Origin: Bilabrum cf. latius
Lineage: Eukaryota
Assembly: GCA_965178125.1 (NCBI GenBank)
Contig: OZ237742.1
Coordinates: 620,001 to 684,000 of the forward strand
Direction of reading: 5' to 3'
DNA length: 64,000 bases
The notes beneath the pieces were generated by a model. That model saw only the letters and a list, made by a program, of their open reading frames with translations. It did no database searches and was not told the origin of the DNA. Positions 1 to 64,000 of the stretch are shown piece after piece. A program made the position numbers and the translations under genes. Position 1 is the stretch's first letter. Every line of letters starts with the position of its first letter.

Positions 1-3000
1 TCGCATGATCTCGTAGCACGATTTTCGATGGCAGTCCGATGCTTCCGCGTGATTGCTGCACTGCTAGTTGCTACTGCTGGGATGCATGGCAAGGAATCGG
101 CTTCTGATGCGAGCTCTAGATCAGCCTCAGATCCGCATTCGTAGCGAAAGTCAGAGTCAATGGCTGGCCTGCAACGCACAGAGCAGCAGGCCTGCGTTGT
201 AGAGCAGTGGACCCTGCCTACAATTTGCGTTGCGCTTGGCGTTGCGGAAAAGATGCTAGCAGTCGGGACAAAGATGCAGTCGCAGCGTTACAGAGAGGTG
301 TATGAGCAGGGTGGAGACACAGCAATGGATGAGGTTGGCACTGCGGAGAGCCAGCCGGGGCAGCGCGCTCGTGGGCAGATGAACCCTGCCGACGACAGCA
401 CTCCTTCGCACGCCCCAAAACAAACAGCTTCTCCAGTCGCCCATTCCAACTCCAGTCTCGATTGCATGCATGATCGTCATGTTTGCGAGGCGATGGAATT
501 CGTTGCACTCCTTGGTAGGGCCCTAACATGCTCTCCTGTTGGCTTCCGTGTTCTGCTTCGCTCCGGCGATGGAGACCCGCACAGCCCCAAAGCCCTGGCT
601 AGAACCGCGCTGGCGCTTGTACTACGCAGCTGGAGCTGGAGCCATGATGCATTTGCTCGGGTTTCTGCAGAGCTGCCTTTGCTTCCCGCTCACCCGGACA
701 AGCCGCAGCACTGGGCAGCAGTGCCTCCCGCCAGCAGACCCTCGGCCTCGAGCTGGCAGCTAGACCCCGGCAGCGACAGCGATGATGAAGCCAGCGCTTC
801 CATTCCGTTCTAGGGCTATGAAGGGATTAAGAGTTGGGCAGCTCCTGGAAGGCGGGGTCGCTCGGGCCGGAGAGGCTCGATTCTGGAGAAGAGGCACGTG
901 CGACGCCAACTATTCGCACTGGAGTCCTCGAGATGCACTCGACAGCTGGTTGCCGAGACACTAGGTGCTGCGATGGCTCATGATTAGTTGCAGACCAACA
1001 GAATTTTGTCTTCGGTAGGAGGCATGGGTTGGCGGAATCTAGGTCCGATCTCTGCGGCTGTGCCTGACAGGACGGCGTCAGAGTCTGCCGCCTTTGCCGC
1101 CATTCTTTGTTCGCTCGGTCTTGCGGCTTCAGGTGGCATTCAAAGTACATCTGCGTCTATCACTGGTGGCACGAGCATCCGAGATAAGCTATTTGCATGG
1201 TAGCCTGCCATGCAGGCTGCAGCCTATCCCTAGTCGGTTCCTTCTCTTGATGAAGCCCTGCACTAGCACGAGCTGTTCAATCCCGCGTTTTACTTCGAGC
1301 ACGACAAGGACATGGCAGCGGCAATAGCTGTAGCAGAAAAGCGAAAAGAGCAATCAGAGCTTGGTAGTGTTGATGTTCACGTGAAGCAGGCCTAGACTCT
1401 CTCGGCTGAGCTGCTGAGAACCCTGTCTGCTGAGAGGGTTTGGTTGCGTTCTGGCGTGTCTGCAGTCAGTCTGTCGCAGGATGCGCCTGGCTTTGGGGTA
1501 TCTGTTGCAGCGGCAGCCTCTGACGGATCGTTGCGGACCCAAAGCATGATCGGGGATCGCACAAGGTCCATCCTGGAGAAACTGTTGGAGCTGCAGAGAG
1601 GAGACCTCATTCAGAAATCAATGATGGGTACCTCAAACCGCGCAGACAAAGTCAGCGTTGCGGACAGGAGCACAATGGGTAGCGCATCGGCGTTATCCGC
1701 AGGAAGTTTCGATGCGCATGCTCACTTTGAACATGATGGGAGCTTGCCTCTGCTGTGCCGTGGCATTTTGGGAACGGACGTATCAGTCAACTCGATGTTT
1801 TCGGCCGCTCTAGCTGCGACTGGTGCTTGGTCAGAGATTCGAAGCGCGACTCACACCATGTCTCGACTCGCCGCAATTAAAAGCTTTCACCAGAATGCTA
1901 GGCTTGCGTCCCTAGTCGCCAATTTTTGGGGCCGGTCAGTTGATTTTAGGACCCCACTAGCAACGAGCCAGACCGCCAGACCCCGAGCTGGCTTGCGCTG
2001 GCCAATGCGCCAAGATCCTGGCCGTGTGTTCCTGAGACATGCGGGCTTGGGTAGCGCCATCAATGATGCGTTCATGCACGCAGGTATTTCGGGTAGTGCA
2101 AATTCTGGTTCGATTGGAGTCGGCGGAGATTAGCAGCGTGGTAGAGGTGTAGATGTTCATGACTCGAGACTGGAAGTAAGTCGATTTGAGAGCATGATAC
2201 AATCTGCAGCCGGCCTGCTTGGTCGAACCATATGGTTCGCAGTTATTGCACGAAATGCGGATCTCCAAGAAGACGAAGCTCCTGGTCGTGGTCGGACGGC
2301 TTACACACTTGCTGCGATCGAACGACTGCAATTGCGAAGGGGCCTACTAGGTAGCATTTCATCTGCACCGCCTGCATTGTTGGTAAAAGGCTATGTAGCC
2401 GCCTGCAGGTTGCCTTCACCTGAACCTGTATCTCCGAAAATGTGTGCAGCCATGTGCATGCAATTATCAGTGTCACTGTTGCGGCACAGCATTGCAAGCG
2501 AGAGATACAGAGATGCTTTGCTTGCCGCGTGCTCCATGCGACAATTGCTCAAGGCAAGCGTTGAAGAAGACAATCAAATGGATCCACCAGTTGTCCGTGA
2601 CTTTGTTGACATGATTGCTCCCCTTGTGCGAGTCTCGACCCGTCTACGTGCAGAGCTATTCGTTGCTGGGTAGTTGCAGCGATCAAGGGCAGAAGCAATG
2701 ATCGCCACTTCAAGGCTCAAATCTGCGCAATCTACTCTAAGACGAGCCTCACAGGAGCTCTTGGCGTCAAAGACCACAACAGGAAGCGATAGCGGCTTTC
2801 CACCGGGCAAGATGCACTCCTCGAGAATCAGCGCCGACGAGGCGCAGCGTCGCACGAGTGTGGCAGAGGACCAAGCCAGCACAGCTGCGCGCGCTCTCCT
2901 GAAGGCAAGGGGCAGATTGATGAGCGCTCGCAAAGGAGCAGGCAGCTAGAAGAGCAGTATGACCGTCCGGAGAATGGCAAGGTAGCTTTATGGTGTCACC

Positions 3001-6000
3001 CAGTTGCTTTCAGCTTGCTTTGACGTGCTGAGAGCACGACTGGACTTGCTTGAAGGGGGTCATCGGACGGCGGACTTCGCCCTCGACCTCATGCATGCTG
3101 TCTCCCCTCTTGTACGAGCAATGAACATGAGTACTGAGCTTCCTATGGTCTCGTCTGCACTGGATCTATTCTGGAGGTTATGTCGGGTCGTGCGGCAATT
3201 CGATCCGCATGGCTCGTTTGTTCACCACGAGGTCATTGAGTCGATGGTTTGCACCAGCCGATGGGCGGCTTGCATGGCTGTGCTGGCCAACAGCGTGCTA
3301 AAACCGGCGCTCTAGAGTAAAAGCATGGGGCTGGAGCGGTCGACGGGCGTGCAAGGGGCTGGAATCAGCTCTGACAAGAAATCTCCTGGCCATGCTGGAC
3401 ATGGTGCAGTCGAAGCATCAGATAGCAGCGCAGGAAAGCTTTCCGAAAGCAAAGATGCGATATCAGCATGCAAGCAGCTTTTGGCAGTTGATTCTGTCGG
3501 CGATCAAGTAATGTCGCAGCTTCTAGGTTCTCTGCAGAAGTGCTGCAGCCCTATTGGTGCGATGCAACCAGATGAGATCGCCCACGTGATGCTAGTCTCT
3601 CTCATTCGGCAGCTGCGGCGAGTCCTCGTCCGGGACACAAGCGTTAATGGTATTTTAAACGTGTATCCATGGCTGACAATAGAGTAGGCTGGCGCGGCTC
3701 AATTAGCAGTTTCTCGCAAGCCGTGCGCCCCTTTTGATCCAACTCTTGGCGACTGCGTGCTGCTTACTGGCATCTCACTTGGCTCATTGGATGCTACAGG
3801 AGGTATCTCTGCCGGTGATAAAGCTTTAAATGAACTGATTCATGGTCCAAGTGAGCAGCTTCGAGCCATTCCAGAGTCCGTACCTGCAGGTACTAATGCG
3901 TCATGGGTTGGTGCGAGTTGCGGGATGCATGGAGGCGAGGGACTGCACAGGATCATTCGAGAGTGTTGTGCTGCTATATGGGCATCGTTACACTTTAGTA
4001 GCGCTGCTGCTGACATTGTGAGTACAGAGACAGTTCCACGGGCGATTGCAACTGTATTGCGGCCGTGCGGGCAGCAGTTTGCTGAGGCATACGAGTTGCT
4101 GCAGCGCGCTCCTGACGAGCCGCGAGCGGAAGCTGCTGACAGCAAAGCAAACAGATCAACATCACGCAGCTCGAGAGGGCCTCGCTTTGAATTCCACGAC
4201 AAGTCGGTTTTCTCATTCCCGTCTAGCGGCCTGACATCGAACCAGCCGTCCGCTGCGTTTGACCGCTTTCGCAAGACGCACTATTCGCACTTCAAAGGAT
4301 CTGATGCTGCGCCAAAGGAGACGGATGCAGGACTTGGAGGCGTTGACTTAGACGCGTCTCCTTCCTTCACTAGACACAGGCGACGATTGTACGATGAGAC
4401 AGCCCCGTATTTGCTTGGACAGGGCTCTGCAGACATTCGCAAGACCCGGGAGGCGGTTCATGCGGTGTTAAAGCGACGAGACCTGAACAAGCTAGGTCGA
4501 AGCGTATTGGTTCGTTCTGTGCATGACCTGCTATCTAGTTTGGGCCGGGGTAGTGGAACCGAAGCCATTGAAGCGGCTGCCCAAGCTCTGGCTCGGGTAC
4601 GGCCGGTGCAATCCGAAAAGATTGTGCTGGACGGCATGGAGCCCTCTGCGGTCATGTTGAATGTGTCAAAGTCCTTGGTGCTGTGGTATCAGGACATGAG
4701 AAAGGATGGTATAACTTCAGATACTCGGCCGTTAGACACATCGCCGGTTCCACAGCACGTTGAAGGGCCGATCAGCTGTTCAGATGCCATTCGAATCTAG
4801 AAATTGGGATCCGAGTCGGCAGCGCTTGCCGGTGGTGAAGGTGATGCACCCATAGAATTTCCTGAAATTTCTTCGATTTCTCCCTTCTTCTCGGACGGTG
4901 TTGCCCACTGTGCTCTTGAGGCTGCGGCTTCCATGTGCAGTGCCATGGCTGCCAAAGCTGACGCGATCTCAGTCGTCCATTCAGTTGGGTTTACTGCATC
5001 TTTAGGACTCTGTGCGGCCAACGTGTTCTGTTCAGCGAAACTCAGGGTTCGCTCCGCCGAAGTGCTCTGGATGCTACACTTAAAGTGGAGATCCATCCAG
5101 CAGCGATCACTGCGGGCTAGCCAGGACCTTGCGCACTCCGTGAAACGAAGCAGTGCCACCCCGCAGGGCAAGAGCAGCGGCAAGGACGGAGTACTTCCAA
5201 CCGTTCTAGGAGTTGCGCAGATGCTGCTTGGCTAGCACAGCCTATGGAGAGCAGCAGCACACCTGCTCCGTGCGATTGGTATGTCACCTCGCAACGTGTG
5301 CATGCCGAATGCGGTTCGACAACGGCGTGTTTGCACGCGCAGTGCGCTTTCTGCTGAAGCGCCCTTGTTGGCAGCCAAGCTTGGGTTGGCTAACGAGCGC
5401 ACCGAATCACAGTCACCGGCGCTGGATCGATTCGCAAACGGGGTCAGTCGTGCAGCTTGGAACTCACAGATTGATGTGCAGGAGCGATGTGCATCATTGC
5501 TCGCTGGCATATCCGCAGAGATAGGCCATGGCAAAGGCGACAGCGGATGCAGTGGCCGAGTTATAGCGGTGGTGTAGCGCACAAAGAAATCGCTTCGTTA
5601 GCTTGCCACCGAGGATTGGGAGGACAAGCACATGAACACATCTGCAGTCGTTGGGCAGCTTCACAGAACCATTTCACTCCTTTTAGTGGTACTTGTAAAT
5701 CTTTCGGCAGATGACCGCTTCAAGTCATCCAGCAAGAGTGCCATACTATCCATCTTTGGCATGGCGTACCCGGTCAGCCGATTCAAGCCTTTAGTAGGCG
5801 GTGGGCACTTGCACCTCAAGCCAAGGCTGCCACCAGCCATTTAGTCCCTGGCAATGAAGCTGGTGACCAATCTTACCCATTCGCCGACGCACAGATCCCT
5901 CGTGTATCGTAGCGAGCTCGCGCACCGAGCCCGCATCGCAAGAAGTGAGCATAAACGGACATGGGCGGTGGATGAAGAAGACTGGAGGCTTAAGCAAGTG

Positions 6001-9000
6001 GACCGAGCAGCAGCTGTGTTTGATCCGAGCTCCACTGATAGCGAGGTCGATGATCCCCTAATCGATGCTCAGGCAGGTATAAAGCTCAGCCGGCAGATCG
6101 CCACCAGGAAACAGGCTCGGGCCCGGGACGTGGAACGCCTACCTCCACACTCTTCAAGCTAGCTTTCTGAAAGCGCCATGCTCCGAATCGAGTCTCGCCC
6201 GCTGCAATGCATGATGCAGCGACCCACTCTGGATAGAAGGGTTATTGTCCGGCAAGAAGAGCTTGAATCCACCCCAACTGACGTGATTCATGTTGAGAAG
6301 GCAAGTCGATCGACCCGGCCCCGCTCTGCAAGACTTCTTCGAGCGAAAGGGACCACAGTATCAGGCACTAGTGGACCAGTTGCTGCTAGCTATTTTGATG
6401 CGCGCTCTGGCTAGTCTCCGCAACCCAATTAGTATACGCTGGCGCCTGGTCCACGACGACCGACGAGTGCCCGCCCGATTCGAAGCTCGCCGAGCGTGAG
6501 CAGGAGCAGGAAGCGTGCTGGTATTCCAAGCTCTCCAATGAGAGTGAAGCCCTTGGGCCTTCGACCAGCCTCGGCTCAAATCGGACTACAGCGACAGTCC
6601 AGCGCGATACTAGATTCTCACAATGCGACTACCTCTGAGTTTTAGTCGCGATTGCGCTGGGCACCAGACGTAACTGCGGTGTCGGCTGGTGGACAGACAC
6701 TGCGAGCGCGCCGAGTTGCAAGCGCGTCGATCGAGCAAAACCTCGGAAATTCTTCTCAATTTGGAGTTGTGCAGGATGGTGCCTTGCAAATTCGAGCAGG
6801 ACAGAGTGAGAACGTGGAGTTTGAGGGTACTTTCTTGGCATTTGGACACGTGCTGCGTGAGTCTAAGGTTGTGGATGAGGGTTCGAGGCAGACTGGCGCC
6901 CGGATATCCACTGCTGCATCTGGTGACGAAGTTCGAAAACGTCGATTCGGTTTTGAATCGCCAAATCGCTCCGCGAGGCAAAGACGCGAACTTCTGGGCA
7001 CGTTCGATGACGACGATGATGACTCTGTTGCAGGCGGGGATGCGGCTGATCATGGCACCCCTGCCAAGCTGATTCACTCTGTGAGACTCTCTCGAGAAGC
7101 TGCCATCGATTCTAAGGACGCCACAGATAGCATCGCTCCAGCAGAATAGGTGCTAGTCGCCACGCATTCGGCAGTGAATGCTGCAGCGTAGGCGTTTGTC
7201 TCAAGAAGAAAAGGCCGTCACGCTGCCGCGAGCCCGATGCGATTTCAGGCCAAGTTCAAAAATGAAGCCAGTGGTGATCAACTCGCCGCGTCTGGTTCTT
7301 TGCGAGACCCCGACGATATCGAGGCAGACCGTAAAGCATTCGGTGGTAAAAGCTTCGAAGTTTCGACCGGGTCAAAGCCTGCAGTACGACGACCTCGTGG
7401 GTCCGAGAATCCAGGCACCGACACGCTGGCGCCGTTCCTTCGCCGACAAGCCAAGAACTGCACCCGTGCTGATGCACTGATCGCTGATGCGCTTGGACTA
7501 GATATTGCACATGAGTCGCAGGCCTTGGGCGGCAGAACAAACAGGCTAGTCGCGCCGTCGGTGGAGCAGGTGCCTGGCATCCATGCCGTGGGCGAGCACG
7601 TGATTGATGGCAGCGGCCACGTCAGGTACTATCCTAAGTCTTAGACGGCTCCAAAGCTGGAGTTTGAGGCCAAGGTGTAGCACGATCGGGTGATGAAGTT
7701 CACGTTCGGCTCTGAGAAGCGTGAGCATGCAGATCCAGCGTCAGCGCGTCATGGACTTGGCGGCTTCAGCAAATCTGCTGCATCAGAGCGCGAGTCTGCT
7801 GGCCCGCACCTGTGGGCGTTCGAGGCACATGAAGGTTCTCGTATCGCAGAAGAGGCGGGAATCCCTTCGCAACGCCTGCCGAATGGACGTTTGGTGAGGT
7901 ATTATTTCCGGTCTGACGTTCACCGGGCCGTGTACCAGCACGATGGCACGCCGGCAAGCTTCCCCTCGGACCCATTTGTCGATTTGAGGCGTCTGCAAGC
8001 TGGGCCATCTGACACCAACATCGGCATGCTACTTGAGGACTGCCCGCTTTTGCCGATGCATCGCATGGATGAGCGTCGCCTGCCTCCCATTGGCTCATTG
8101 CTGGACCCCAATTCACCCAGATGGCGCAGCAGGCCGTGGGCGCGCGGTCTTGTGCTCCCCAGTCCGTTCGAGGGCAAGCTACAGGTGTATTTTGACGACA
8201 AGTCTTACAGCGTCCCGTAGCTTCCTGCACTCCCGCGTGAAAAGCGACCGACCAACCTTGGTGCCAGGAAGAAGAAGGCGGTCGACAAGATAGTGTCTGT
8301 TTTCAAGCCTCGCTCGAGGGAGAGTGCATCCGGGACTCTCTTTACTGGAGAAGCAGTTGGGGCCAAAGCCATTCGACTCGAATGGAAGAGGCAAGAGCTA
8401 AAAGGTGCACTCTTTGTTATGGTCAATCGAATGTACAAGGAGGTGCGAGGGGGCTCTAGAGGAGCCACCGATCTTGGTCGCACCCTTGAAGTTCTGTGTG
8501 AGCCAGACAATGCTGAGCTTGTGCTCGCGGTGTTCGATCTGTACGCCGCAGTCACCGGTGGCACCGACACGGATGCGTTCCTCACGCTTACCCAGGCAGG
8601 TTTTCACCTGTTTGCGGCCCATGCTGGCATTGTGCAGGTGCCCGGGGTGCAGCCATCCAGCGCCGGCAGGCGTTTCAGCAAATTTGCTCTCAGAAGCAGC
8701 GATCTGGACACTGTGTACATCCAGGCACATGTGCAGACCAAGCGGTTGTAGGATGCCAGGGCCATGAAAGCAAGCAGGGCAATCGGAATTCGGCCCGCTC
8801 CTCGCTCAGGATCTGTTGCAGCCACTGGACGGTCTTCAACATCAAGTGCATCCGCTGCTCGAGGCAGACAGGCAGGCCAAAGCAGCCCCGCTGCAAGGCA
8901 GGGCTCGCCGACCCGCGTATCATTGCCACCGGAACCTGCCGATCGATCGCTGCATCGCTGGTAGTTCATTGAGAGTCTAGCCCGCATCGCACACGACATG

Positions 9001-10302
9001 TACGTCAAGTCCTCGCAAGAGCGGTCGTTAGCGGGTGCGATGCGGCGGTTGCTGAGCCAGGACCTTAGAAGGCGTCTACCGTTCTTCGTGCAGATTGCTG
9101 GCGATCGGTACAGGAAGCGGCGCTTGTACACGCTGGCGGTCGATGATGCCATCAGACCGCACCTGCAGACGCTACGAAGGCTCCACACTACATACGCCTC
9201 GCCTGACGCGACATTTACTGTGGAAGTCCCAGTTCGTCGCGGCAAGGCGCTCCTCAAGGCCGTTGCAGGAGCACTGCGAATGCGACTGGCGATGCTAGGC
9301 GCAAAAGGGCTCAAGCAAGGGGCGGGTTCTGGCAACAAGCCAAGTGGTGGGCTGCTTGGGGCCGTCGGGAAAGTGGCGGCAGCTCAGCAGATACCTGCTG
9401 CTGATAGTGTGAGCGAAACAAGTTCGACTTCAACTCCGAATACTCGCACAGTGAGGATGCCACTGATGGCTCTGGAAGGCTTCATGAGGCTGATGCATGA
9501 CGCTCGCGTTGTGGACGGGGACCTCACAAAGCGAGACATCGTCCTTGCGTTTACATTTGCTCGGCTTAGACGACCCGATCCACTGAGGGGATCGGGAGAA
9601 ATGCAGCGCTCTACGCATCTATCATTCATGGACTTCCTCGAGGCGCTGTGCCGAGTTGCAGACTCCCATACCCTACCGACGCACGAGGAAATGCAGGCAG
9701 CTGGCGTGCAGGATCCCAACGAGTATTTCAAGAAGCTGGACGCTGCCGGACTGCCTCGGCCGAGGCGACCTTCAGGGTCGTGGGTCGCCCCGAAAACGCG
9801 GCCGCTAGGTGTGAAGGTCCAGCTGTTCTTGGATCGACTGATGGGCGGCCTAAAAGATCGCGTGGCAACGCTTCGTGACAGCGACTCCAAGATCAAGTCT
9901 GCCCTAGTCCCAACCCCGGCTGGCGGGCTCGCAATTCCAGCTGGTGCCCTCGCTGGAATCAAGGATCCAAAGAAAGCCGTCGAATTTGTGCGTGCAGCCG
10001 CCGCGCTGGCTAGCCGCGCTGCACGAGCTAGGGAGGTTTTAGCCTCAAAGTCAAGGTCCTCCGACCGCAAGCAGCAGCAAATTGTGCTAGATGGGGATGG
10101 TAGAGCCAGCTAGGGGGCCGTGCACAGCTCCGGGCCACGTATTCTGCTCGAGGGAAGTTCTAGTGCGAACGCGCGACGCCGAGGGTCCGTCGTGATCGGA
10201 GCTGGAGACTTGGCCAGGCTGGCCAGCTCGGTGCAGGGTGCTGATCTTGCTAGTAGGGCAGGTGTTCGACGAAGGGTCGGACACAGGAGGCAGTCTGTTT
10301 GA
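1..10302 (+). CDS. Giant uncharacterised protein (>3,433 aa, starts before the window) with C-terminal EF-hand-like helical motifs
   Basis: Frame 1 is open from base 1 to TGA at 10300-10302 except for 30 TAG codons (e.g. 142, 811, 985, 1201, 2131, 4798, 8962, 10111). There is no TAA/TGA and no frameshift, and ORF-track pieces 160..813 through 10120..10302 share this frame. C-terminal motifs LAVFDLYAA, SLHRW[Q]FIESLARIAHDMY, MALEGFMRLMHDAR and LSFMDFLEALCRVA resemble degenerate EF-hand-type helices. Function not assigned. Confidence 0.85.
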
Positions 10303-13175: not shown

Positions 13176-13285
13176 GAATCACGCAAACGATCAAAATGTT
13201 ATCAAGAACACTTTTCGTGGGCGAATTGAGTGGGAGAAGCAGTCGAACCAAACACGATTCCACTTTGGCGCACAACAGCCCCCCA
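13176..13285. promoter_or_regulatory. Putative compact bidirectional promoter (KIFBP / C9orf78-like)
   Basis: Head-to-head start codons about 110 bp apart with an AT-richer spacer. Inferred from geometry only. Confidence 0.45.
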
Positions 13286-14689: not shown

Positions 14690-14854
14690 TTGCTCGCTGC
14701 ATCATTTATTTGCGGTGCATCGCCGTGTATAGAGGCCCCAAACTTCCACCCACAATGTTGCAGAGCTGTGCGGAACCTGTCGGCGATGCTATGCGCGGCG
14801 CTGCCAGGAAATATCCAGCTGCGGTTTGCCATTCGCGCACCGCCTTCTTGCACG

Positions 14855-17520: not shown

Positions 17521-17658
17521 ATCCACTAAGTTTGATCCAAATTATCCCTTTTGTGATAGTAATCAGCAGGTTTGCTTATGTGTCTGCGAATCTCCACAAC
17601 AATATCGATTCCGGAATCCGGATTGCACAATAGCCACAAACATCGATCATTCAACGCA

Positions 17659-54100: not shown

Positions 54101-57100
54101 TGCGTATGCCTGATGGAGTGGGTGAATTAGAGCCAACTGATGAATCGTGGCCGAAGCGAGCGCTAAGCAGTGCAACTGCGTAGCGTGCCGCAACTGTCTT
54201 CCTAGCAATATCCAGCAAACCAGTCTCCGCACTTTCTACTGCCTGCGAAGAAGATTCAAGCTCTGAGAGCGCAGCCGCTCTCTGTTGCCGCAGCACATGA
54301 AGGTTTGCCCTCGCGGTCATGTGCGCGCGCAGAGCGCGCTGGTACGGCGAGAAACCCGACCCGTCAGCACGAGTGGGATCGGCTCCAAGAGAAAGGAGAA
54401 CAGAGGCTGCCGATCCCTACCGAGTTCGTACCGCCAAGCCCAGGGGTGAGAGTCGTCCGCCGCTCCACGGAGCCATCGACGAGGACCGCGAGCCGTGCGC
54501 ACTAAATAGTGGACTACCCTGGCGTTGAAGCTGTTGTTGCGCTTGCTTTGCCACCTATGCAAGAACAGCACCAGCACCATCGGCCGCATAAGCCCCAAAC
54601 ATTCGATACTGGGGACCCACAGGAAGCAACGGCCTGCACCAGAGAGCCTCTGGGGGCGCCTGGTCGCCACACATGACTTCTGGTGATCCATGTCTCCGCA
54701 GCCATGTCCGAAGCACCGCGCTGGCTCCAGGTACGTAGAACTCTTCAGGAGCTGTCATTTGCTGAGATTCGTTCAGCCTACCGCTGTAGCTCGAAATTTC
54801 ATCATGCGAGGCTCCTTGCGAGGATACCACGCTGCTCTTGCCTGCTGCAACCAATACGTGCAGGAGGGCAGACGCAGCATCACCGTCTAGCATTCCCATC
54901 TTCAGCATCAATCGTGCAAGCAGTGTTTCTTGGACAGTTGCGGAGGAACCAGGCAGTGAAGCCTGCCTTCGATATCGCGGACTTTCGTGAACCGATGTTG
55001 GTTCGTCTGCAGTTCCAGCCGCGAATCCAACTCGCCGAGAAGACGGTGCAGTCTTGCTTGAGCCACAGCATCCATCCCGAGCGCATCGCGACCCACAGTA
55101 CCCGCAGCAGCACGAATAGTTGTGATCAAAGCTCCTGCTCATGGGCCACCACACCATGCAGCAGCCGCAGAAGCAGCACGCCCACACAAGCCACAGCAGA
55201 AGATCACCCAGCCATGAACAGCAGGACCTACGCGGCGAGGTGCTTGAAGCAGCTCTCGGACTATCAGCACTATTTCCACTCAGAAGACCAAGCTTTGCAG
55301 CGCTCTACCACTTCTTTGCAGTTTCAAGTCGAGCTTGACGTTGCACGCCAGGGTCCACTTTGTTTTCGTCGGGTGTCTCGCCTCCTGACGAGCCGTTAGT
55401 GCCGTTCACCTCTTTCTAGGGCCGTTTGAGCACTTGCAAGCGAGCCTCATGGACGCTTGAATGCGAGTTATTCGTCTCGCTGGGGTCTGCAGCCACGTGA
55501 AGGTGGCGCTTAGATACCTGCCTTCCGATCTCCCTTGAAGATGGTGTGCGGCCAGACCTAGACGATATCAAGTTCTCAACGCGAGGAGATGCCGATGTCG
55601 AAGCAGACGACTTGACGCCGGGCTGCAACGCATCGTCGACGTGAATCCAGGGCAGACTTGCGCCTGGTGGGACTGCGGCGAGCGCTCGTTGGAGAGGAGT
55701 AGCTCCTCTATCCTCACCCTTCCGCATTGCGACACCCACACCTTCAACTACGCTAGCAGGAACAGATGGAAGTTCGTCTACAGCATGCACACCATCGGCA
55801 GTCCCACTATTGGAGTCAACGGCAGCATCTACGGCTCTGGTTCTTCCGTCTTTGCCAGTTGTTCCCCACAGTGCGTGTTCTCGTCTCTGCCGATTTCGAG
55901 AATTGAGGACAGCGGCAGCAAGTGACGTACCTGCATCACCATGGACACCTGCATGACGATCAAATGCGACGCTAGCCTACCCAGAGGACGCCGATTCAAG
56001 CTCGTAGCCCCCCTTTCTCGAGGCTGCTGCGCCAATTAATGCCACCATGGAAGCGTTCCCCGAGAGGACCGCTGCATGCAGAGCATTGAAGCCCATTCGA
56101 TCTGCTTGTCGAACCGATGCTCCAGATGCCAGCAATGCGGTGCACAACCTCGCATGACCTCTCACAACCGCCGCGACCAGAGCAGTGATACCCTAAGAAT
56201 CTGCTTTCTGAACTTCAGCGCCAGCATTCAACAGCAGGCGAGCAACCCCCACATTGCCGGCACGGGCTGCCAGCATGAGCGGGGTCTAGCCCAGAAAGTT
56301 GATGCAGTCTACAGCAGGCTCTGGCTACATTTTCGGCCTCCGGTTGCGCATTGCCAAGATAACGCTGGCTAGGCCAACATCGCCGACCAGAGCGCTTCGC
56401 AGCAGCAACTAGCTCCACAGCTGGCGTTTCACTGCGAGGAGAACAGCCTACTCAGTACGTGAGGCCTCAGCTGCAAAATTCGACAGCTTTTCTGTCGCTT
56501 TTCGAATCTATTCGAGGACATCGATTCCTTTGGATTCCGTTGGAGCCACAGAATCAGCGTGTGCTGTGCCTGCGACCTGCCCGCTGATCTTTGCGTCGAT
56601 GGCATCGCCAGGAGAACTAGCAGGCTTGCTTTCACCTTTTCCAAGGTCTCCATGCAGCTCTGGACTTGATCGTGTGACTCCAATGGCCTCGCCGTCCATG
56701 AGCTCCTCCTGCTCCTCGTCGACTTCCAGCTGCCTGATCTCGTTGTGCTCGGCCTCCTCCAACTCTTGTGCGAGCTGAGTCTGCGGCACAATCCTGTAGC
56801 CCATGGCTACGACAGCTTTAACGAGCTCTTCAGCCTAGCTTCGGTTACCACGCTAGTCCTCTGGAGGCAACAGCTCGAACGGGCGCAGCAGGGCAGACGT
56901 CTGAACCTCTACCCTCGTCGTAGCGTGCCGCTCCTGCCTTGCGCCGCGCTTGCCCGCCTGACTCTTGATGATCTTCACAATGGGGCGACCGTCACCATGC
57001 ACCACACCCTTCTTCATTTGCTCTAGAGACCAAGTCTCGTGGTAATTTCTTGCGAGCAATTCGCACAGGCTTCTCTGCACAGAGTCCAGGCGCACTGTGC

Positions 57101-60100
57101 CGACGTCAATGAGCTCGTCGCTGAGAATATCAGCAAGGCTCGTTGCTCGAGATTGTGGTGTAGGCGGTGCGTTGAATTGTTGCATTGTACCCCTTCGACT
57201 GTGCATCATGCTAAGAGATCCACGGCTGCTGGCCCGCGAGCCGAGCGATCGCTCGCTCTAGAACTTGCTTGGTGACGTCGAGCTCACGCTGGGCTGCACT
57301 GCCTGCGCAGATACCACAGAGGCGAAAGATGCTCTCCCATCGACACCGCCAGCAACCACATCGCCCAGTCCCGGACTACTTTTGAGTGCTTTTCCCATGG
57401 CAAGGGCCAGCTTCGGGGGCCTTCGCGATGCGCCCGCTGACCCTTCCGAGCCGGTGCCTGGGCTGTCGCTTGCAGCCGGTGCGGCCAGTATCGCTTCAAC
57501 TCCTTGCTGCAGTCCAGCATCACCACCACCAGTCGTTGCATTGATAGGGGGAAGGGATGGGGTAGAACTGCTACCAGCCATTCTTCTCTCGTCAGCTTCA
57601 TCCTCATTGTCTTTGCCGGGATCATCGTGCTCTTCAAAGCTGCTCACCTGTCCGCTGACCAATTGAACCTGACCTGGGAGCGAAGAAGATGCTGCGGAAG
57701 ACTCGTCTTCATGACCATGTTCGAGGCTCTCTACGTTCTCGGGAGTAGTAGGCTGCGTCTCATCCACACCTGATGATGCGGCAGAGACAACACTCCGATT
57801 CGATTTCCCGAGCATTCCGAGTAAGGCCCTCCTGCTCCTGTCCTTGAGGATGACTAGCCGACTCACGCCCTTCATTAGCTCATTTCCACGCCTGCTTTCC
57901 TTCGACTGCTCTGTCCCAGACCCTGCAGCAGGCTCTGAACCTCCCTAAGACTCGGCAGCACGGCTTCCCCCTTCATCACAGGATGCTGCAATTGACCTCA
58001 CTACGTTGCCTGATGCATGCGAGCCTGCTGCTCCCGGACTACGACTAGATGCGTGAGCAGACTATGAAAGCTGATCGGACATCTGGTGCCCCGTGCCACC
58101 GTCGTGATCATTGTCATCATCGTGCCCCTCCCCGACCAAAACTCGAGCGGCATTATCTCCCATGTTGGTTTCGCGCATCGCATCTGTGCGTCCGTCTTCA
58201 GCCGGCGGGGCCTGCAGCACAAATCCGAGGGCGGCAATGAGCTTAAGGCTGTCATGCGCCGCCTTAAGGTTGTTCTCTTGCCCATCTGCATCCAAGGAAG
58301 CAAAAGTTCGCAACAGCGGGTGCAGCTTCTTGCTGTTGTCACGCTTTGCACCAAATCTCCAGCCCTGACCCAGCCGCATGAGCGCCCATACCGTGTGGCT
58401 ATTGCGCGCCAGTGCTCGCTTCAGGCATTCAATGTGGGCTTTTTTGAGGTCTGTCTCTGCTTCAAGGACCTCTTTGACTTCTGGGGCACCTTCTAGTCGC
58501 GTTGTATCGAGGTTGAAGAGGATGTCCTCGTCCTCTTCGTGGTCAATGTCGGCTTCATCATCGTCATCGTCGTCATCATCGTCATCGTCCTCATCAGACG
58601 ATGAGTCAGAGCTAGCCTCGTCAAGGAGCGCCAGTTCCTCTTGTTCTGAAAGACCCACCGCACCTGCAGCACCAGATGACACGCCTACCTCGGTGTCGAT
58701 GACACCCTCAGCCAGCAATTCCTGCCCCAGAGATGCGCGCTTGACATGTCCATGACCACCTGCCTCCCTTCCGTGGCCGTGCTTGCCATTGAATAGCTAC
58801 CGCACGGCGTCTTCGCTGCTCTTCGCAGTTGACGATGGCGAATGCGGCCCGGTTCCTGGTGATGAATCTACCGTGCCCGGTAGGCTATCAGCAGCCGGTA
58901 CATGTTCCGGCGGTTCGGTAGCCGCAGCCATGCCTGCATCCAGCTAGTCTGCTCTGTGATCGATGCCGACCCCAGCCCCAATTTCCATCTCTCGTCGATT
59001 TCGAAGCATCCTCCGGATGGCACGCTTTCGAAGCTTCCGCCTGGCCTTTCGTTCCTCAAGAACAATCCTGACCTGTGCCTTTGTGAGCGCAGATCGAATG
59101 GCCTTGCGCGTGGCTGGAATGTCCACCGTGACGTCGTCCTCGCCAGTGTCAACCGGCGCTGGCCTGTACGCCATGATCCTCTATTCCTCGCTTTCGTCGG
59201 CCCTGATGGCCCGACATGAGTGTCTAGGGCACTCGCAGAAGCGAGGCGTCGAGGAGAGCCCCAGGCGATGCAGATGTGGGATGGCACTGATCGGGGGCGC
59301 GATCAACGAGGGGGCCCCAAATGGCGCACCTCCCGGCCCTCGAAGCACGAGTGGCGCACCGCCGCCCACGTGAGCATGCAGGCCACCGGCACCGCCAGTG
59401 TCAGCATCCAAAGCATAGCTGTCTGCGACAGCATCCCAGACATACGCCCCGATAGCAGCGACTTCTTGTCCTGCCTCCTGCTAGTACCTGGTGGCTGCCT
59501 CTACCTCTCTGATCGCGGCATTTGGCGATAGGTTTACTCCATGCCTGTGGCACTGCACTGCACATGCCTGGCAGACTACCTTCCCACACCCCGGGAAGTC
59601 GCACCGAACCAGATGCTATCGGATTGGGTTGTTGTAGCCTGCGTACTCAAATGAGCATCCGCACCTGTGCTTTTGCAGCACTGCTGTGCGGACCGCAGCA
59701 GACCACACGTGCTTCGAGACCGGGTTGCGGCGACGAGCCAGTAGACCAGAAAATGCCGGCGCGTCGAATGATAGCACCGACCACTCAAGCATCTCACCAA
59801 GAGTGCGCGCCCCTGTGCGAGCAGGCCTTGCATCTGCTGCAAGAAGCATGGAAGCCCCAGGCCAGTCGGCCTGGCGGAGAGCTAGGTCGCATGCCGTGTG
59901 CCCATACGCAGAAGCTACGTTTCGTCTCGATGTGAGTCGCCACGGCGCAATTGCAGTTGGAAGGGCCATGCCAGCCGTTCGAGTGACCCAGTCAACGCCC
60001 TGGTCCGCGACGACACTAGCCACTCGCAGGACGGCTTCTGCAGGGGTTTCCTTTCTGCCGCTGCTAGTCTCGCCCGGGTCATTCAATAATAGACCGTCTT

Positions 60101-63100
60101 CAGGGTGACCTCGTGTTTCTAGACCTGACACCTCACCACTTGCTGATATGGCCTCGCTGCTGGCATCCAGCATCTGTGCAACCCGTGCTGATAGGGCTAT
60201 CGCGGCAGGGTCTTGCTAATCAGCAGTTGCGGGGTCGCTCGCTGGCCGGTTACTACACTCTTGCTCCCGCAAGCGCTCCAGCAGACTGGCAACGCCAGAG
60301 CGAACTTCATCCCGGATCAGGCGCCCTCTGAGCTGGCCAGGACCGGAGAGGAGATGCAGCGCTGTCTGAGGTGCCCTGGCCTCGATAGCAAGCCGGGCCG
60401 CCTGCACTGTTCCCCCCAGATCGTGGAGCAAGCTGCGGACCACATCGTGCTGTCCAAGCCACGCGGCTAGCATGAGGGGAGTGTACCGTTCGCGATTGGT
60501 GCCGCGACCGGGATCCGCTTCTAGGATGCAGGAAGGCCCAAGCAGTTTGCTCCACGACACGCAGGCCAGCGTGCCGGCCTTGGACCCCTCATGGAAGGGT
60601 GTCCAGCCCTCCTAATCGCCCATTGAGGCCACTCGGGCTACCTGATCGTGCGAGAGGCCGGCAAGCATCGCCATTGCGCACCTTTGGGCCATCATGATGG
60701 CGACCTTGTGTCCCCTGGCCACGTCGCGCTGCGATGGCGACATAGCAGCGAGTAGTTTGGCTTGCGGAGATTTCTCAACTGCGTCCAGTCGGCTGCCACC
60801 TGTCAGTCCGCGCCTTGACGTCTGCCCCATCGCGGGACTGGCACTCGGCGCCCCCCGAAAGGACGAGTACCCCGTACCCTTTCGCATTAGAGAAGGTTCC
60901 TTGCCCTTGGCTTCGCCCCCGTCTTTGTCGAACACGGATCGCCGGCTGCCAGCAGGCAGCGGGCCCATCGCAACCGATGCGTGAGACATGACCGAGGTGC
61001 GGCTGTCCCATTTCTGAAGCTGGCCTCTGCCACTGGCTTTCCTTCCGCTTCGTGTCCTCCCGAGACCGCGCGCGGCCCGCAGCATGATCGCCCCGCCCGG
61101 CATGGGGGCACTTCCGTCTGCCTGCCCACCAGGTCCCCCGCTGCCTCCGCCGCCAGCGGTGAGCCCAAGCCTTGCAGCTCGCTTGTGCTCCTGCGTGGCC
61201 AGCCGCTGAGACAACTCTCGCCTCTATCGCCTTCTGCTCGCGCGCACTTCTTCCCACTGCATCCTCGCTAGCGAGCTGGACAAGGCGTAGTGCAGCGGAT
61301 TCTTGCCAAAGCTTGACTTGACGGCACACCGAGCTCCGGCAGCTACTAGCAAAGCTACGCAGCGCGGGTGGGCAGCCCTGCAGGCCATGTGCAACGGGGT
61401 TAGCCTTTCAGTATTCTCCCGTGCATTTGGGTCTGCTCCCGCAGCGAGAAGAAGTGCAACCACCAGGGCATTTCCGGACGAGGCTGCGAAGTGGAGCGCG
61501 GTTTCACCTCCACCGACCTTGGAGTCGCATGCCGCCGGGTCCGCCACGACATCACTTGCTGCAAGCAGCTCGAGCGGGGCCGAAACGTGAGATGCCAGCG
61601 CCGGCTTGGGCTACACAATGAGCTGCTGCTAGTTGGGTGCCAGCGATGAAGCTGATCTTGCCTCCGTTTGAGGCGGGGCGGGGCTTGCAATAGATGGCGA
61701 GACTCCGGGCTAGATAGACGATGCGGTTGCAAGCTCCGGACTACGAGCACTTGGGGTCGCAACCAAGCCGATAGCATCAGTGGCACCGCTGAAGCTGGGC
61801 TTGCGACCCTTGCTGCCACCCGTGTCTGGGCTGCCAAAGACCGGCGTGCGCGGCTGCCTAAACCGGATGCCCCCAGTCCCTCCGTTCGTGGCGGACCCAG
61901 ACGGCACTCCACCCCGCTTCGGAGAGAACAGAGGTCCGCGGCGAGGTCCGTCTTCCACGAGCTCACGCAGCCACTTGCGCCTACCAGCCGCCGTCACCAC
62001 CTCTGGCCACCGCCGCCCCGTCAGCAAATCAGTGAGCAGCCTTCGGAAGTAGAACGGGTCTCGGTTCTTCTGCTACACCATGCTGACGCCACCAGCATGA
62101 GACCCGCGTCTGGCGGCGAAGGAGCGGCGGCGATGCTGGGAAGATCGGCGGCTGTGCGTGCTCTTCGCCTCACTCGCTCCTGACGCCTCACGGCCGCCCG
62201 TCGCATCGCCCTCAGCCTCGGTGTCTCTTGCAGCCTGCAGAGCAAGATGCAAGGAGACGCGCCGCTGAAGCTTCGGACGGGCAGACGAAGGCTCCTGGCC
62301 CTTCTCGTTGTTTCCAGACGCCTCTTCTTTGCTGTCTCGCATGGATGCACCGGCAGGCCCTCCACGAGTCCCCTGCCGCTCGACCGCAGATGCGCTACCC
62401 ATGGGGGTGCCCCCCGCCATGCTGTCCTGGTGGCCGGGAGGAGGGTTCACCGTTGAGTCGATTCCCAGCTCTGTCTTAATCTTGGCTTGCTCTTCCTCGT
62501 TGATGAAGCGCATGGATCTCCTCTTGGCTTTCTGCAGGATGCTGCGGCGACGAGCGGTGGATCGTCTGCGGGCACGCAGAACCGTGTCCTCCCGATCTCC
62601 GCCAATATCGTCCTCATCGCCATCAGCAACCGTAGCGTCGGGTTTGCGGCCTGCCAGCACGGAGGATCGCACGATGCTAGCGGTCGCAAGTGAGATGTCC
62701 GCTTCATCTGTGGCGAGAGCGTCGAGTACCACGGCGACACACCGAGCAGCGCGAACTTCAGAGGGTCGCAGCCACGTGGACGATGGAATCGCAGGGCACA
62801 TCCAAGACTCACCACTTGCATGGTGCGGCCCTGGTACAGCTGCCCGGCTGCCTGCACGGCTTCTGCCTGTCGCACCTGCTGCGCTCTGCCTCTCCGGGGC
62901 AGCTGTTGAACCAAGGATCGGCGGCGGCAGCAGCTGGAATGCCTTGGATCTGCTTGCGACTGTTGTGCCAGAGTGTCGCTTGCTGCCACGAGGACTAGAG
63001 GGGTGGGGACCCAAGCTCCCCGGCTCGAGCAGCTCCGCAGCTTCGTCTGCAGTGATACCACCTGCTCCGACCCCACTCCGACTTCGTGAAGACGCGCTGT

Positions 63101-64000
63101 CACCACTGACGCTGTTACCGTCCTAAGTGGACCTGCGAGGAGCCAATGGCGGGGCAAGGATCCCAGCATCCGTCGCGGATGCCGTGATTTCGGCTTCCAC
63201 GGCAGCACACCAGAGAGGCGGCTTGGGACCGAGCCCGTCCCCGCTGCCGGTCGCTTCTTCGTCCGAGTCATCTGCAGCGATTGCTGGCGCTGTGGGCCCA
63301 CCCAGGCATCTAGGCACTCCCTAGAACGCTTCTTTCTGCGGGTCAGTGCCCGCATAAATCTTGTTCATGAGCTTCAGCTTGCCACCCAGGATGGCGCTCC
63401 TGGACATACGGAAGCTGGTTCCAGAATCCCAGCCCGCGCGACTTGAAGTGGCGGTGCCGCCGCTGCCAAATGGCACGTTGCTCTCCCGATTTGCGTTCTT
63501 GCTGCCCGAGGCATGCGAGCCCCGCGAGGCACTGGAACCCCTTCGTTGCCGCACGGGTGGGCTCCCGATCCCACCCATTCGCGGATATTCCTGATCGCCG
63601 CCGCCGCCCCCGCCGCCGCTGCTGCCGAGCTAGGGGTTCTACGGCGACCGCCTGCGGAGAGCGGCACGAAGCAGTGCTCTCTTTGCCCTGTCTCGTTTGT
63701 CTGCCGATCCTTTGGACCTTGTGCTCTTGCCATCGCTGGACTTGGCTTTTGATTTGGACGGGCGCTGGTCCAGCTGCAGCCACGGCCGGCCAGACGACTC
63801 CACCGCGCCCCAGCCATGCGGCCCTGCCTCACCGTGAGTAAACACGTCTTCGTCTTCAAATTGAAGCCGGGCACCGTCTGGGCGTCTGGACATTCGGTAC
63901 GTGCAAAGCATGTGGAGCCCGTTCCAGCCAAGGGGCAATGCGCTTACCGATGGATCGGCGCCCCGGCGCAGCCAAAGCATGATACCGGTAGGATCTGCTC
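48108..64000 (-). CDS. Giant polycystin/TRP-type cation channel with ankyrin repeats, UBR-box-like zinc finger and two RyR repeats (PKDRR-like; >5,290 aa, starts beyond the window)
   Basis: One frame open from 63998 to TGA 48108 apart from about 49 TAG. Ankyrins (GETALHFAA, LTPLHMAC, YTPLMLAA, G[Q]TPLMLAA, GFNALHAA); RyR repeats (LARNSHTVW...GWRFGAKRDNSKKLHPLLRTF near 58.2-58.4 kb; LARNYHETW...LLRPFELL near 56.8-57.1 kb); CSF...[Q]HLVRC...CQACAVQCH...FCEC near 59.2-59.7 kb; channel TMs and pore IGS[Q]NEDYDTVGKAMLSLFQLGLG...LNLYIALIS near 50.7-53.2 kb. Confidence 0.87.

What the first reader, a model, noticed from the sequence alone, without database searches (positions are those of the whole stretch)
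1..64000. Non-standard nuclear genetic code: TAG is a sense codon in every gene of the window
Seen in sequence: all 14 genes contain in-frame TAG (about 130 in about 19,700 codons, manual count) with no internal TAA/TGA and no frameshifts. This includes frames of 10.3 kb (30 TAG), 8.6 kb (17 TAG) and 15.9 kb (about 49 TAG), and conserved genes such as V-ATPase a, HflX and SNM1. Established knowledge: nuclear reassignments usually move UAA and UAG together (many ciliates, hexamitid diplomonads, some ulvophytes). UAG-only changes are rare (Iotanema spirale Gln, a rhizarian Leu, some phyllopharyngean ciliates). Inference: gene content and high GC suggest a stramenopile, a group where I know of no nuclear UAG-only reassignment, so this could be an independent, undescribed code change.
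Basis: partly seen in the sequence, partly recalled or inferred. Interest (0 to 1): 0.97.

Follow-up and report, generated by a model that had tools for sequence, protein, structure and literature searches.

The report
TAG read as glutamine, nuclear genes
This stretch of a compact, GC-rich eukaryotic genome uses the stop codon TAG as an ordinary codon, most likely for glutamine, and ends its genes with TGA, a rare kind of genetic-code change that may not yet be described for this lineage.

Summary
Read with TAG as sense, the window is tiled by 13 long frames. They hold 131 in-frame TAG, 0 TAA and 0 internal TGA in 19,504 codons, and all 13 end at TGA. The other two frames of the same DNA hold 60-65 TAA and 301-444 TGA.

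The genes are eukaryotic: V-ATPase a, KIF-binding protein, SNM1, glucan synthase and an ankyrin/RyR channel. Contigs from two other studies carry the V-ATPase a gene with two GT..AG introns removed, so they come from RNA. One of these runs covers 21 of the 31 in-frame TAG in the 20 kb laid, unchanged. This argues against editing, splicing and assembly error.

The amino acid is most likely glutamine:
- Fragments 87-95% identical show Q, Q, Q, S at our TAG sites.
- Where their own frames stop, ours has TAG, TAG, CAG, CAG, CAG, TAT, TTG.
- Fragments 64-68% identical show Q, Q, and human KIFBP shows Q.

TAA is never sense, so this is a UAG-only change. That kind is known from Iotanema, Protocruzia and some phyllopharyngean ciliates. 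Here the lineage is unnamed; ochrophyte stramenopiles are its closest named relatives. No tRNA or eRF1 gene could be examined. My eight literature searches found no matching report.

The parts
1..10302 (+). 3' part of a very large gene of unknown family (3433 codons in the window, 5' end outside); 30 in-frame TAG; ends at TGA
   Evidence: no Pfam family. Seven ORF fragments of a relative, 87-95% identical, map onto it. They read Q, Q, Q, S at four of our TAG sites and break at two others.
10445..12886 (-). KIF-binding protein (KBP) homologue; 2 in-frame TAG; ends at TGA
   Evidence: Pfam KBP_C, E 3e-45. Human KIFBP aligns Q to the TAG at residue 192.
13196..14689 (+). gene of unknown family; 5 in-frame TAG; ends at TGA
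14690..16726 (+). PH-domain membrane protein with Cys clusters; 2 in-frame TAG; ends at TGA (true start uncertain)
   Evidence: Pfam PH, E 1.5e-8.
17572..21235 (+). two frames (17572-18825 with 3 TAG; 19046-21235 with none); the second is GH95-like; possibly one gene
   Evidence: Pfam Glyco_hydro_95_cat matches from profile position 95 onward in the second frame. That they form one gene is inference.
21805..30645 (-). 1,3-beta-glucan synthase-like giant membrane protein, 2946 codons; 18 in-frame TAG; ends at TGA
   Evidence: Pfam Glucan_synthase, E 6e-46. Fragments of relatives 64% and 68% identical read Q at two TAG sites. Near-identical fragments (97-100%) start shortly after a TAG, and one also ends at a TAG.
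30778..33024 (+). SNM1/DCLRE1-type DNA repair nuclease; 6 in-frame TAG; ends at TGA
   Evidence: Pfam DRMBL. PDB DCLRE1A, E 2e-25. An RNA contig of run X5 covers 31789-33161, including 5 TAG, unchanged.
33143..35773 (+). gene of unknown family; 3 in-frame TAG; ends at TGA
   Evidence: X5 contig 33198-35899 covers all 3 TAG and ends 126 nt after the TGA.
35948..40024 (-). gene of unknown family, 1358 codons; 5 in-frame TAG; ends at TGA
   Evidence: X5 contig 36104-38850 covers 2 TAG unchanged.
40064..42649 (+). HflX-type GTPase with long insertions; 8 in-frame TAG, 4 of them in the conserved N/M domains; ends at TGA
   Evidence: Pfam GTP-bdg_N, GTP-bdg_M and MMR_HSR1. Column analysis against 119 homologues. 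A 91% identical fragment, P0135, begins 5 codons after a TAG. X5 contig 41200-42693 covers 4 TAG.
42876..43730 (-). small ORF of 284 codons with 1 in-frame TAG; possible 14th gene
   Evidence: No Pfam family. A contig of run X8 lies at 42704-43521. Weak.
45030..48016 (+). V-ATPase subunit a gene. Exons 45030-45143, 45242-45364 and 45458-48016. Introns 45144-45241 (98 nt) and 45365-45457 (93 nt), both GT..AG. In-frame TAG at 45084-45086 in exon 1; the TAG at 45428 is intronic. Ends at TGA.
   Evidence: Pfam V_ATPase_I, E 3e-210. Spliced contigs in runs X5 and X8 (two studies); the DNA run X4 is unspliced..
48108..64000 (-). giant gene (at least 5296 codons, 5' end outside the window) with ankyrin repeats, two RyR domains and an ion-transport/polycystin-like channel part; 49 in-frame TAG; ends at TGA
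   Evidence: A 17,490-nt X5 contig starts at 48094, 14 nt beyond the TGA, and covers 6 TAG unchanged in the part that was laid.

Best explanation
The window is nuclear DNA of an intron-poor, compact eukaryote with 58% G+C, in which UAG has been reassigned genome-wide from stop to sense, most likely to glutamine. UAA has not been reassigned, and UGA ends every gene seen.

Shown here:
- TAG is in frame in conserved and lineage-specific genes alike, about as often as in the non-coding frames.
- It is present unchanged in spliced, RNA-derived contigs.
- It is shared at the same sites by close relatives.
- Where relatives differ, the partner codon is mostly Gln/CAG.

Inferred from what is established for other such codes, and not tested here:
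- A cognate tRNA-Gln with anticodon CUA, one base away from the CUG anticodon, reads UAG.
- eRF1 has lost or weakened UAG recognition while still recognising UGA.
For: 1. Frames. There are 131 TAG, 0 TAA and 0 TGA in frame in 19,504 codons. The two off frames hold 158/162 TAG, 65/60 TAA and 301/444 TGA. Only freeing TAG opens the 5297-, 3434- and 2954-codon frames. 13 of 13 frames end at TGA.

2. The genes are real and eukaryotic: V_ATPase_I (E 3e-210), KBP_C, DRMBL, Glucan_synthase, the HflX domains, PH, and Ank + RyR + Ion_trans.

3. RNA. Runs X5 and X8, from two studies, hold contigs that join 45143 to 45242 and 45364 to 45458 across GT..AG introns, while the DNA run X4 is unspliced there. 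The listed X5 contigs end near gene ends and cover 21 of the 31 in-frame TAG of 30000-49900 with 0 other letters. X5 depth varies from gene to gene (5-87), whereas X4 is flat at about 90-110 outside repeats.

4. Amino acid.
- In fragments 87-95% identical, 4 of our TAG sites are spanned and read Q, Q, Q, S.
- At the 7 places where those fragments end, our codon is TAG, TAG, CAG, CAG, CAG, TAT, TTG. All five non-TAG codons are one base from TAG.
- Fragments 64% and 68% identical read Q, Q.
- Human KIFBP reads Q.
- A BLOSUM62 sum over 18 entries (the comparisons at our own TAG sites with near relatives, more distant relatives and deep homologues; the fragment-end comparisons are not included) gives Q 22.7 and E 6.5, with all other residues at or below 0.

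5. TAG is not a terminator here. In 11 of 11 genes the tail between the last TAG and the TGA scores highest in frame 0 on codon usage. One gene scores about 0 and one tail has only 12 codons.

6. TAG needs no strict context: the base after it is C in 45, G in 36, A in 33 and T in 17 of 131 cases.
Against: - No tRNA gene (0 found) and no eRF1 gene lie in the window, and no whole genome is held. The mechanism is therefore untested.
- Deep-homologue columns alone do not single out Gln. The four HflX columns are dominated by R, A/S/T, R (118 of 119) and T. The V-ATPase a column is D/H/E and the glucan synthase column is V/F/C. The deep-only sum is Q 2.7, E 1.5, D 0.3.
- 3 of the 9 informative comparisons with the 87-95% relative are not Q (S, Y, L).
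- More distant fragments (50-57% identical) read V, V, T and a gap.
- The run tool itself labels X5 'RNA? (probably DNA)'. I call it RNA because of the spliced contigs and the contig ends. Contigs drop rare variants, so partial editing cannot be excluded.
- There is no peptide evidence.
- TAA was never seen as a stop either, so its status is open.
Confidence: 0.85

Rival explanations
1. UAG is a sense codon but stands for another amino acid, for example Glu, Tyr, Leu, Ser or Lys. All of these are one base from TAG and some are known from other lineages.
For: Deep-homologue columns are not specific for Gln: R, K, T, D, E and H are common there. One S, one Y and one L appear among the 9 informative comparisons with the 87-95% relative. 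UAG=Leu, UAG=Ser and UAG=Glu codes exist (passages of PMC11687900).
Against: Q accounts for 6 of the 9 informative comparisons with the 87-95% relative, 2 of 2 with the 64-68% relatives, and the one KIFBP site. No other residue occurs more than once among these. In the summed score E reaches 6.5 against 22.7 for Q.
Confidence: 0.06
2. UAG has two meanings, sense inside genes and stop near some 3' ends, as in the context-dependent codes of Condylostoma or Blastocrithidia. Alternatively it is read through at high efficiency without full reassignment.
For: C follows TAG in 45 of 131 cases (34%, against 24% for codon first bases overall), and CAG is the next codon in 13 of 131. This recalls leaky stop contexts. 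3' UTRs seen in the RNA contigs are short (14-126 nt). In gene 1 the relative also breaks at our last TAG, 63 codons before the TGA.
Against: TAG occurs in frame about as often as in the off frames (131 against 158 and 162), up to 49 times in one gene. Incomplete readthrough could not sustain that. The first non-TAG stop is TGA in 13 of 13 genes. All 11 tails after the last TAG keep their best coding score in frame 0. All four bases follow TAG.
Confidence: 0.07
3. The in-frame TAG are not translated as such. They would be assembly errors, RNA-edited sites, tiny introns or marks of pseudogenes.
For: None found. The idea rests only on the rarity of code changes.
Against: Contigs from four runs of four studies match with 0 other letters outside one repeat. 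The only GT..AG joints seen by two runs in the 20 kb laid are the two V-ATPase a introns; the other four listed joints are single-contig skips without GT..AG ends. Contigs of the run that holds the spliced transcript keep the TAG. Pseudogenes would also collect TAA, TGA and frameshifts, but there are 0 of each in 19,504 codons. Relatives conserve the frames.
Confidence: 0.02

Closest known systems
UAG-only stop-to-glutamine nuclear codes: Iotanema spirale (Fornicata), Protocruzia tuzeti and two phyllopharyngean ciliate lineages. NCBI table 15 has this form (table number recalled).
   Same: UAG is sense and most likely Gln. UAA is not sense. UGA terminates. The list of known cases comes from passages of PMC11687900 and PMC5304391.
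   Different: The lineage differs. This is a GC-rich (58%) genome with giant intron-poor genes. Its V-ATPase a is closest to unnamed environmental sequences and, among named ones, to ochrophyte stramenopiles rather than ciliates or metamonads. No UAA stop was seen among the 13 genes, so whether UAA still terminates is open.
UAR-to-glutamine codes (NCBI table 6 type): many ciliates, Hexamita, ulvophytes, Streblomastix, and the aphelid Amoeboaphelidium protococcarum
   Same: A stop codon is read as Gln, presumably by a tRNA-Gln with a changed anticodon.
   Different: TAA is never in frame here: 0 in 19,504 codons against 131 TAG, although CAA makes up 209 of 787 CAA+CAG codons. The aphelid is also unlikely as the source. 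Yeast FKS1 gives only 88 bits with the glucan synthase, and animal and yeast V-ATPase a give 385-395 bits against 526-560 for ochrophytes.
Other UAG-only reassignments: rhizarian exLh (Leu), Scotinosphaera (Ser), and Oligohymenophorea sp. PL0344 (UAG=Glu, UAA=Lys)
   Same: UAG is uncoupled from UAA.
   Different: The amino acid differs. Here L and S each appear once, and E not at all, among the 9 informative comparisons with the 87-95% relative, against 6 Q.
Context-dependent stop/sense codes (Condylostoma, Parduczia, Blastocrithidia)
   Same: In-frame standard stop codons in all kinds of genes; short 3' UTRs.
   Different: Only one stop codon is affected, and a different, unambiguous codon (TGA) ends all 13 genes. 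I found no sign that TAG terminates.

Membership tests
UAG-only stop-to-Gln nuclear code (table 15 type) | UAG occurs in frame in bona fide protein-coding nuclear genes | tested here: met
   131 in-frame TAG in 19,504 codons of 13 frames. TAG lies inside Pfam-matched genes.
UAG-only stop-to-Gln nuclear code (table 15 type) | UAG is present in the mature mRNA (not edited, not spliced out) | tested here: met
   The contigs listed for run X5, which also holds the spliced V-ATPase a transcript, cover 21 of the 31 in-frame TAG of 30000-49900 with 0 other letters. These are contigs, not raw reads.
UAG-only stop-to-Gln nuclear code (table 15 type) | UAG is decoded as glutamine | tested here: met
   Indirect evidence only. 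Q in 6 of 9 informative comparisons with the 87-95% relative, in 2 of 2 with the 64-68% relatives, and at 1 KIFBP site. The summed score is Q 22.7 against E 6.5. No peptide evidence.
UAG-only stop-to-Gln nuclear code (table 15 type) | UAA is not a sense codon | tested here: met
   0 in-frame TAA in 19,504 codons, against 60-65 in each off frame.
UAG-only stop-to-Gln nuclear code (table 15 type) | UAA and UGA remain terminators | tested here: inconclusive
   UGA ends 13 of 13 genes and UAA ends 0 of 13. The sample is too small to say that UAA is unused.
UAG-only stop-to-Gln nuclear code (table 15 type) | A cognate tRNA-Gln(CUA) and an eRF1 with altered UAG recognition | not testable with these tools
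   There are 0 tRNA genes in the window, no eRF1 gene in it, and no genome is held.
UAR-to-Gln code (table 6 type) | Both UAA and UAG are in frame as sense codons | tested here: not met
   TAA 0 against TAG 131 in frame.
Context-dependent dual-meaning stop codes | The reassigned codon also terminates genes near the 3' end | tested here: not met
   13 of 13 genes run to a TGA. 11 of 11 tails after the last TAG score best in frame 0. This is weak for one gene (score about 0) and for one 12-codon tail.
Stramenopiles (taxonomic placement) | Marker genes branch within stramenopiles | tested here: inconclusive
   Only V-ATPase a could be tested. The named hits among the 120 listed are ochrophytes (diatoms, chrysophytes). 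In a FastTree of those 120 hits the query groups with about 20 unnamed sequences, apart from the rest that includes the named ochrophytes. The tree holds no outgroup taxa. The window has no rRNA.

The most novel reading that the evidence does not exclude
This is an independent and not yet described UAG-to-Gln reassignment in a stramenopile-affiliated lineage of GC-rich, intron-poor eukaryotes. It is shared by a small clade: the relatives at about 90% identity, and probably those at about 65%, also break at TAG, whereas one at about 50% shows 631 uninterrupted codons. A bolder addition, not counted in the probability, is that UGA is the only terminator in use and UAA is left unassigned.
Probability: 0.45. 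Interest if true: 0.8.

Novelty: new member of a known kind. Interest (0 to 1): 0.72.

Why it matters
Nuclear genetic-code changes are rare, and changes that separate UAG from UAA are rarer still. Passages of PMC11687900 list only a handful of such cases. A further case in a GC-rich non-ciliate would help in several ways:
- It would add an independent data point on how UAG can be freed without UAA.
- It would test the idea that such changes depend on low G+C or on ciliate-type genome architecture.
- It could offer a clade in which the step is recent, because relatives with and without in-frame TAG seem to exist.

There is also a practical consequence. Standard-code gene calling shatters this organism's genes. 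The public protein collections hold only fragments bounded by TAG, so any annotation, completeness estimate or phylogenomic use of these assemblies needs a TAG=Gln table.

Tried and rejected
- Whole genome: none is held, so no genome-wide codon inference and no search for tRNA or eRF1 was possible.
- tRNA scan of the window: 0 genes.
- Rfam at gathering threshold: 0 matches, so no rRNA for placement.
- Earlier findings of this scan: nothing for this genome, its relatives or the words searched.
- RNA runs: no RNA holder is listed by the look-up of sequencing runs. I inferred the RNA nature of X5 and X8 from spliced contigs only.
- Exact 40-base pattern of the window: 0 matches in viral contigs and 0 in metagenome contigs.
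- The search for related loci with a V-ATPase a alignment in metagenome contigs: 80 loci were kept, best identity 38%, none a close relative. I did not examine them further.
- ESM Atlas with V-ATPase a: it returned only the family, with plant, fungal and animal clusters all at 0.97, which is useless for placement.
- Pfam on four small ORFs of 42876-45176: no family. Tandem repeat search of 42600-45500: none.
- Deep-homologue columns as the main route to the amino acid: too few and too variable. I therefore relied on near relatives.
- A strict sequence context for TAG: rejected, only a mild excess of C/CAG after TAG.
- Literature: eight searches found no nuclear UAG reassignment reported for a stramenopile or labyrinthulomycete. 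Subscription journals, supplements and papers outside the library were not seen.
- Aphelid origin (Amoeboaphelidium, a TAG/TAA=Gln code; passage of PMC6299283): rejected on the absence of in-frame TAA and on weak similarity to opisthokont V-ATPase a and FKS1.
Full report
**The observation**

The window has 55-64% G+C along its length. Under the standard code it holds only 15 ORFs of 300 aa or more, the longest 849 aa. With TAG read as sense it is almost fully tiled by 13 long frames on both strands. Among them are frames of 3433 codons (30 TAG), 2946 codons (18 TAG) and 5296 codons (49 TAG).

As a control I listed stop-to-stop frames with each stop freed in turn:
- TAG freed: 5297, 3434 and 2954 codons.
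- TGA freed: at most 1071.
- TAA freed: at most 862.
- Standard code: at most 862.

In the 13 frames I counted 132 TAG, 0 TAA and 13 TGA in 19,530 codons, and every TGA is the terminal codon. After the V-ATPase a frame was trimmed to its last exon, frame 0 holds 131 TAG, 0 TAA and 0 TGA in 19,504 codons. The two other frames of the same DNA hold 158/162 TAG, 65/60 TAA and 301/444 TGA. So TAA and TGA are completely excluded from the reading frame, while TAG is almost as common in frame as out of frame.

**What the genes are**

Pfam finds these families:
- KBP_C (E 3e-45)
- PH
- a GH95-like catalytic domain
- DRMBL/SNM1
- the three HflX domains
- V_ATPase_I (E 3e-210)
- Glucan_synthase (E 6e-46)
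- ankyrin repeats, two RyR domains and an ion-transport/polycystin-like part, all in the giant gene

PDB searches agree for SNM1A, KIFBP, FKS1 and V-ATPase a. This is nuclear DNA of a eukaryote. The window has no tRNA or other Rfam RNA.

**RNA evidence**

Sixteen public runs were listed and 15 of them hold the 38100-48050 stretch or part of it; six hold half or more of its sampled words. I laid four runs from four studies on 30000-49900.

- The deep run X4 behaves as DNA. Its depth is flat at about 90-110 outside repeats, and one contig runs unspliced through 44916-46603.
- Runs X5 and X8 each hold a contig that joins 45143 to 45242 and 45364 to 45458. This removes 98 and 93 nt with GT..AG ends.

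The joined sequence reads as the missing N-terminus of V-ATPase a from an ATG at 45030. These contigs therefore derive from spliced RNA, even though the tool only guesses the run kinds.

The other X5 contigs listed look like transcripts:
- One ends 126 nt after a TGA, one 44 nt after, and one 76 nt after.
- One contig of 17,490 nt starts 14 nt beyond the TGA of the giant gene.
- X5 depth differs from gene to gene (5-87).

Together the X5 contigs listed cover 21 of the 31 in-frame TAG in the laid stretch, with 0 other letters. One of these is the TAG at 45084 in exon 1 of V-ATPase a, which X8 also covers. The output lists only the longest pieces (702 more are not shown), so coverage may be higher. 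The only differences reported in any run lie in a repeat at about 44,140-44,850. Editing, splicing at TAG and assembly error are thus not supported. Contigs can hide minority variants, so raw reads would be better.

**Which amino acid**

Three database searches returned ORF fragments from close relatives. Standard-code gene calling had evidently cut them at TAG.

*Gene 1 (frame 1-10302).* Seven fragments, 87-95% identical, were found, six of them from one 54-kb contig.
- Four of our TAG sites are spanned, and the fragments read Q, Q, Q, S there.
- The seven fragments end where our codon is TAG, TAG, CAG, CAG, CAG, TAT and TTG.
- Two ends therefore fall on shared TAG sites. The other five fall on codons one base away from TAG, as expected if the relative's own stops there are TAG.

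*Glucan synthase.* Fragments 97-100% identical start shortly after a TAG, and one also ends at one. Fragments 64% and 68% identical read Q at two TAG sites. Fragments 50-57% identical read V, V, T and a gap.

*KBP.* Human KIFBP aligns Q to one TAG.

*Deep homologues* are less telling:
- The four HflX TAG columns are R/V/K, A/S/T/G/E, R (118 of 119) and T (107 of 119).
- The V-ATPase a column is D/H/E.
- The glucan synthase column is V/F/C/T.
- SNM1A gives D and P.

A BLOSUM62 sum over these 18 entries, which do not include the fragment-end comparisons, ranks Q first (22.7), then E (6.5). With the deep columns alone the result is Q 2.7 and E 1.5.

I conclude Gln, resting mainly on the near relatives. 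With the 87-95% relative, 6 of the 9 informative comparisons are Q, and no other residue occurs twice. TAG would then be 131 of 918 Gln codons (CAG 578, CAA 209).

**Is TAG also a stop?**

I found no sign of it.
- All 13 genes run on to a TGA.
- In 11 of 11 genes the tail between the last TAG and the TGA scores highest in frame 0 on a codon-usage ratio trained on the rest of the genes. One gene scores about 0 and one tail has only 12 codons.
- The base after TAG is C in 45, G in 36, A in 33 and T in 17 of 131 cases, and CAG is the commonest next codon (13 of 131). This is a mild bias, not a required context.

TAA is neither sense nor, in this small sample, a terminator.

**Who it is**

No genome is held and there is no rRNA in the window.
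- V-ATPase a finds its best match at 45% identity (797 bits).
- Other unnamed sequences score 600-635 bits.
- The named sequences among the 120 hits listed are diatoms and chrysophytes, at 526-560 bits.
- Animal and yeast subunits in the PDB score 385-395 bits.
- Yeast FKS1 gives only 88 bits with the glucan synthase, against about 190 for unnamed proteins.
- In a FastTree of the 120 hits the query groups with P0001, then with about 20 unnamed, mostly metagenomic sequences, apart from the rest that includes the named ochrophytes. The tree has no outgroups, so this is not a placement.
- Cluster look-ups gave no organism names for that clade.

I therefore call the organism stramenopile-affiliated at most, and not an opisthokont. 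That also argues against the aphelid Amoeboaphelidium, whose code reads both TAG and TAA as Gln (passage of PMC6299283).

**How far the code extends**

The relatives at about 90% identity share TAG sites. The fragments at about 65% identity are short (96-126 aa), and one ends where we have CAG, which suggests that they too are cut by TAG. One fragment at about 50% identity runs 631 codons without a break. At our TAG density about 4 TAG would be expected there. This hints that the change is confined to a small clade, but without DNA it is inference only.

**Comparison with what is known**

Passages of PMC11687900 and PMC5304391 list these nuclear cases in which UAG and UAA differ:
- rhizarian exLh (Leu)
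- Iotanema spirale (Gln)
- Scotinosphaera (Ser)
- an oligohymenophorean ciliate (UAG=Glu, UAA=Lys)
- phyllopharyngean ciliates (Leu, and Gln twice)
- Protocruzia tuzeti (Gln)

The code seen here has the same form as the Gln cases, so it is a new member of a known kind rather than a new kind. For Iotanema, PMC5304391 puts forward as a working hypothesis a T32G change in the eRF1 GTS motif; it also notes that the tRNAs responsible are unknown for most described variant nuclear codes. A tRNA(CUA) together with an altered eRF1 is my inference here and could not be tested.

Eight literature searches found no nuclear UAG reassignment reported for a stramenopile or labyrinthulomycete. Apart from the passages cited above (and find look-ups in PMC13768787 and PMC12153298, which gave nothing relevant) I saw those papers only as search listings and abstracts. 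Supplements are closed, and the depositors of the 2025 runs may already know of this code.

**Verdict**

The amino acid is most likely Gln. The mechanism, the status of UAA and the identity of the lineage remain open.

Noticed in passing
window 44100-44950: A dispersed high-copy repeat lies just upstream of the V-ATPase a gene. Summed contig depth in the DNA run X4 is about 4,900-11,600 there, against about 100 elsewhere. Many variant positions and loose ends occur in all four runs. It has no Pfam family, no tandem structure and no Rfam match.
   Followed up: partly
window 42170-42200 (bin 41952-42615): A short GC-rich low-complexity segment inside the 3' part of the HflX gene attracts very high summed depth (3,444 in X4, 942 in X5) and many loose ends. 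It is probably a simple motif repeated across the genome.
   Followed up: no
window 14690-16726 (+), 21805-30645 (-), 48108-63998 (-): Three unrelated membrane proteins carry dense cysteine clusters: the PH-domain protein (2), the glucan synthase (2) and the giant channel (4). Examples are CCCGLCCRCC, CGCLCCC, CGNCCCACC and CCCCC. Two other large genes have none. This could be a lineage-typical palmitoylation-type motif.
   Followed up: partly
the 13 stop codons, e.g. 10300-10305, 14687-14692, 48014-48019: All 13 terminators are TGA, and the next base is T in 8 of 13 (TGA TTG in 4 of them). This is unusual, because purines are the usual strong +4 context in eukaryotes (recalled).
   Followed up: no
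window 48016-48108: V-ATPase a and the giant gene converge, with 91 nt between their TGA codons. The RNA contigs of X5 end at 48092 and begin at 48094, so the two 3' UTRs abut almost without a gap.
   Followed up: partly
window 40064-42649: The HflX-type GTPase is closest to alphaproteobacterial HflX (41-50% identity over the conserved parts). It carries long low-complexity insertions and a C-terminal extension that double its length. It is probably the mitochondrial HflX/GTPBP6-type factor.
   Followed up: no
window 17572-21235: Two consecutive frames on the + strand are separated by 220 nt, and the second is GH95-like starting at profile position 95. This may be one gene with an intron, or with a sequence error, between 18826 and 19045.
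   Followed up: no
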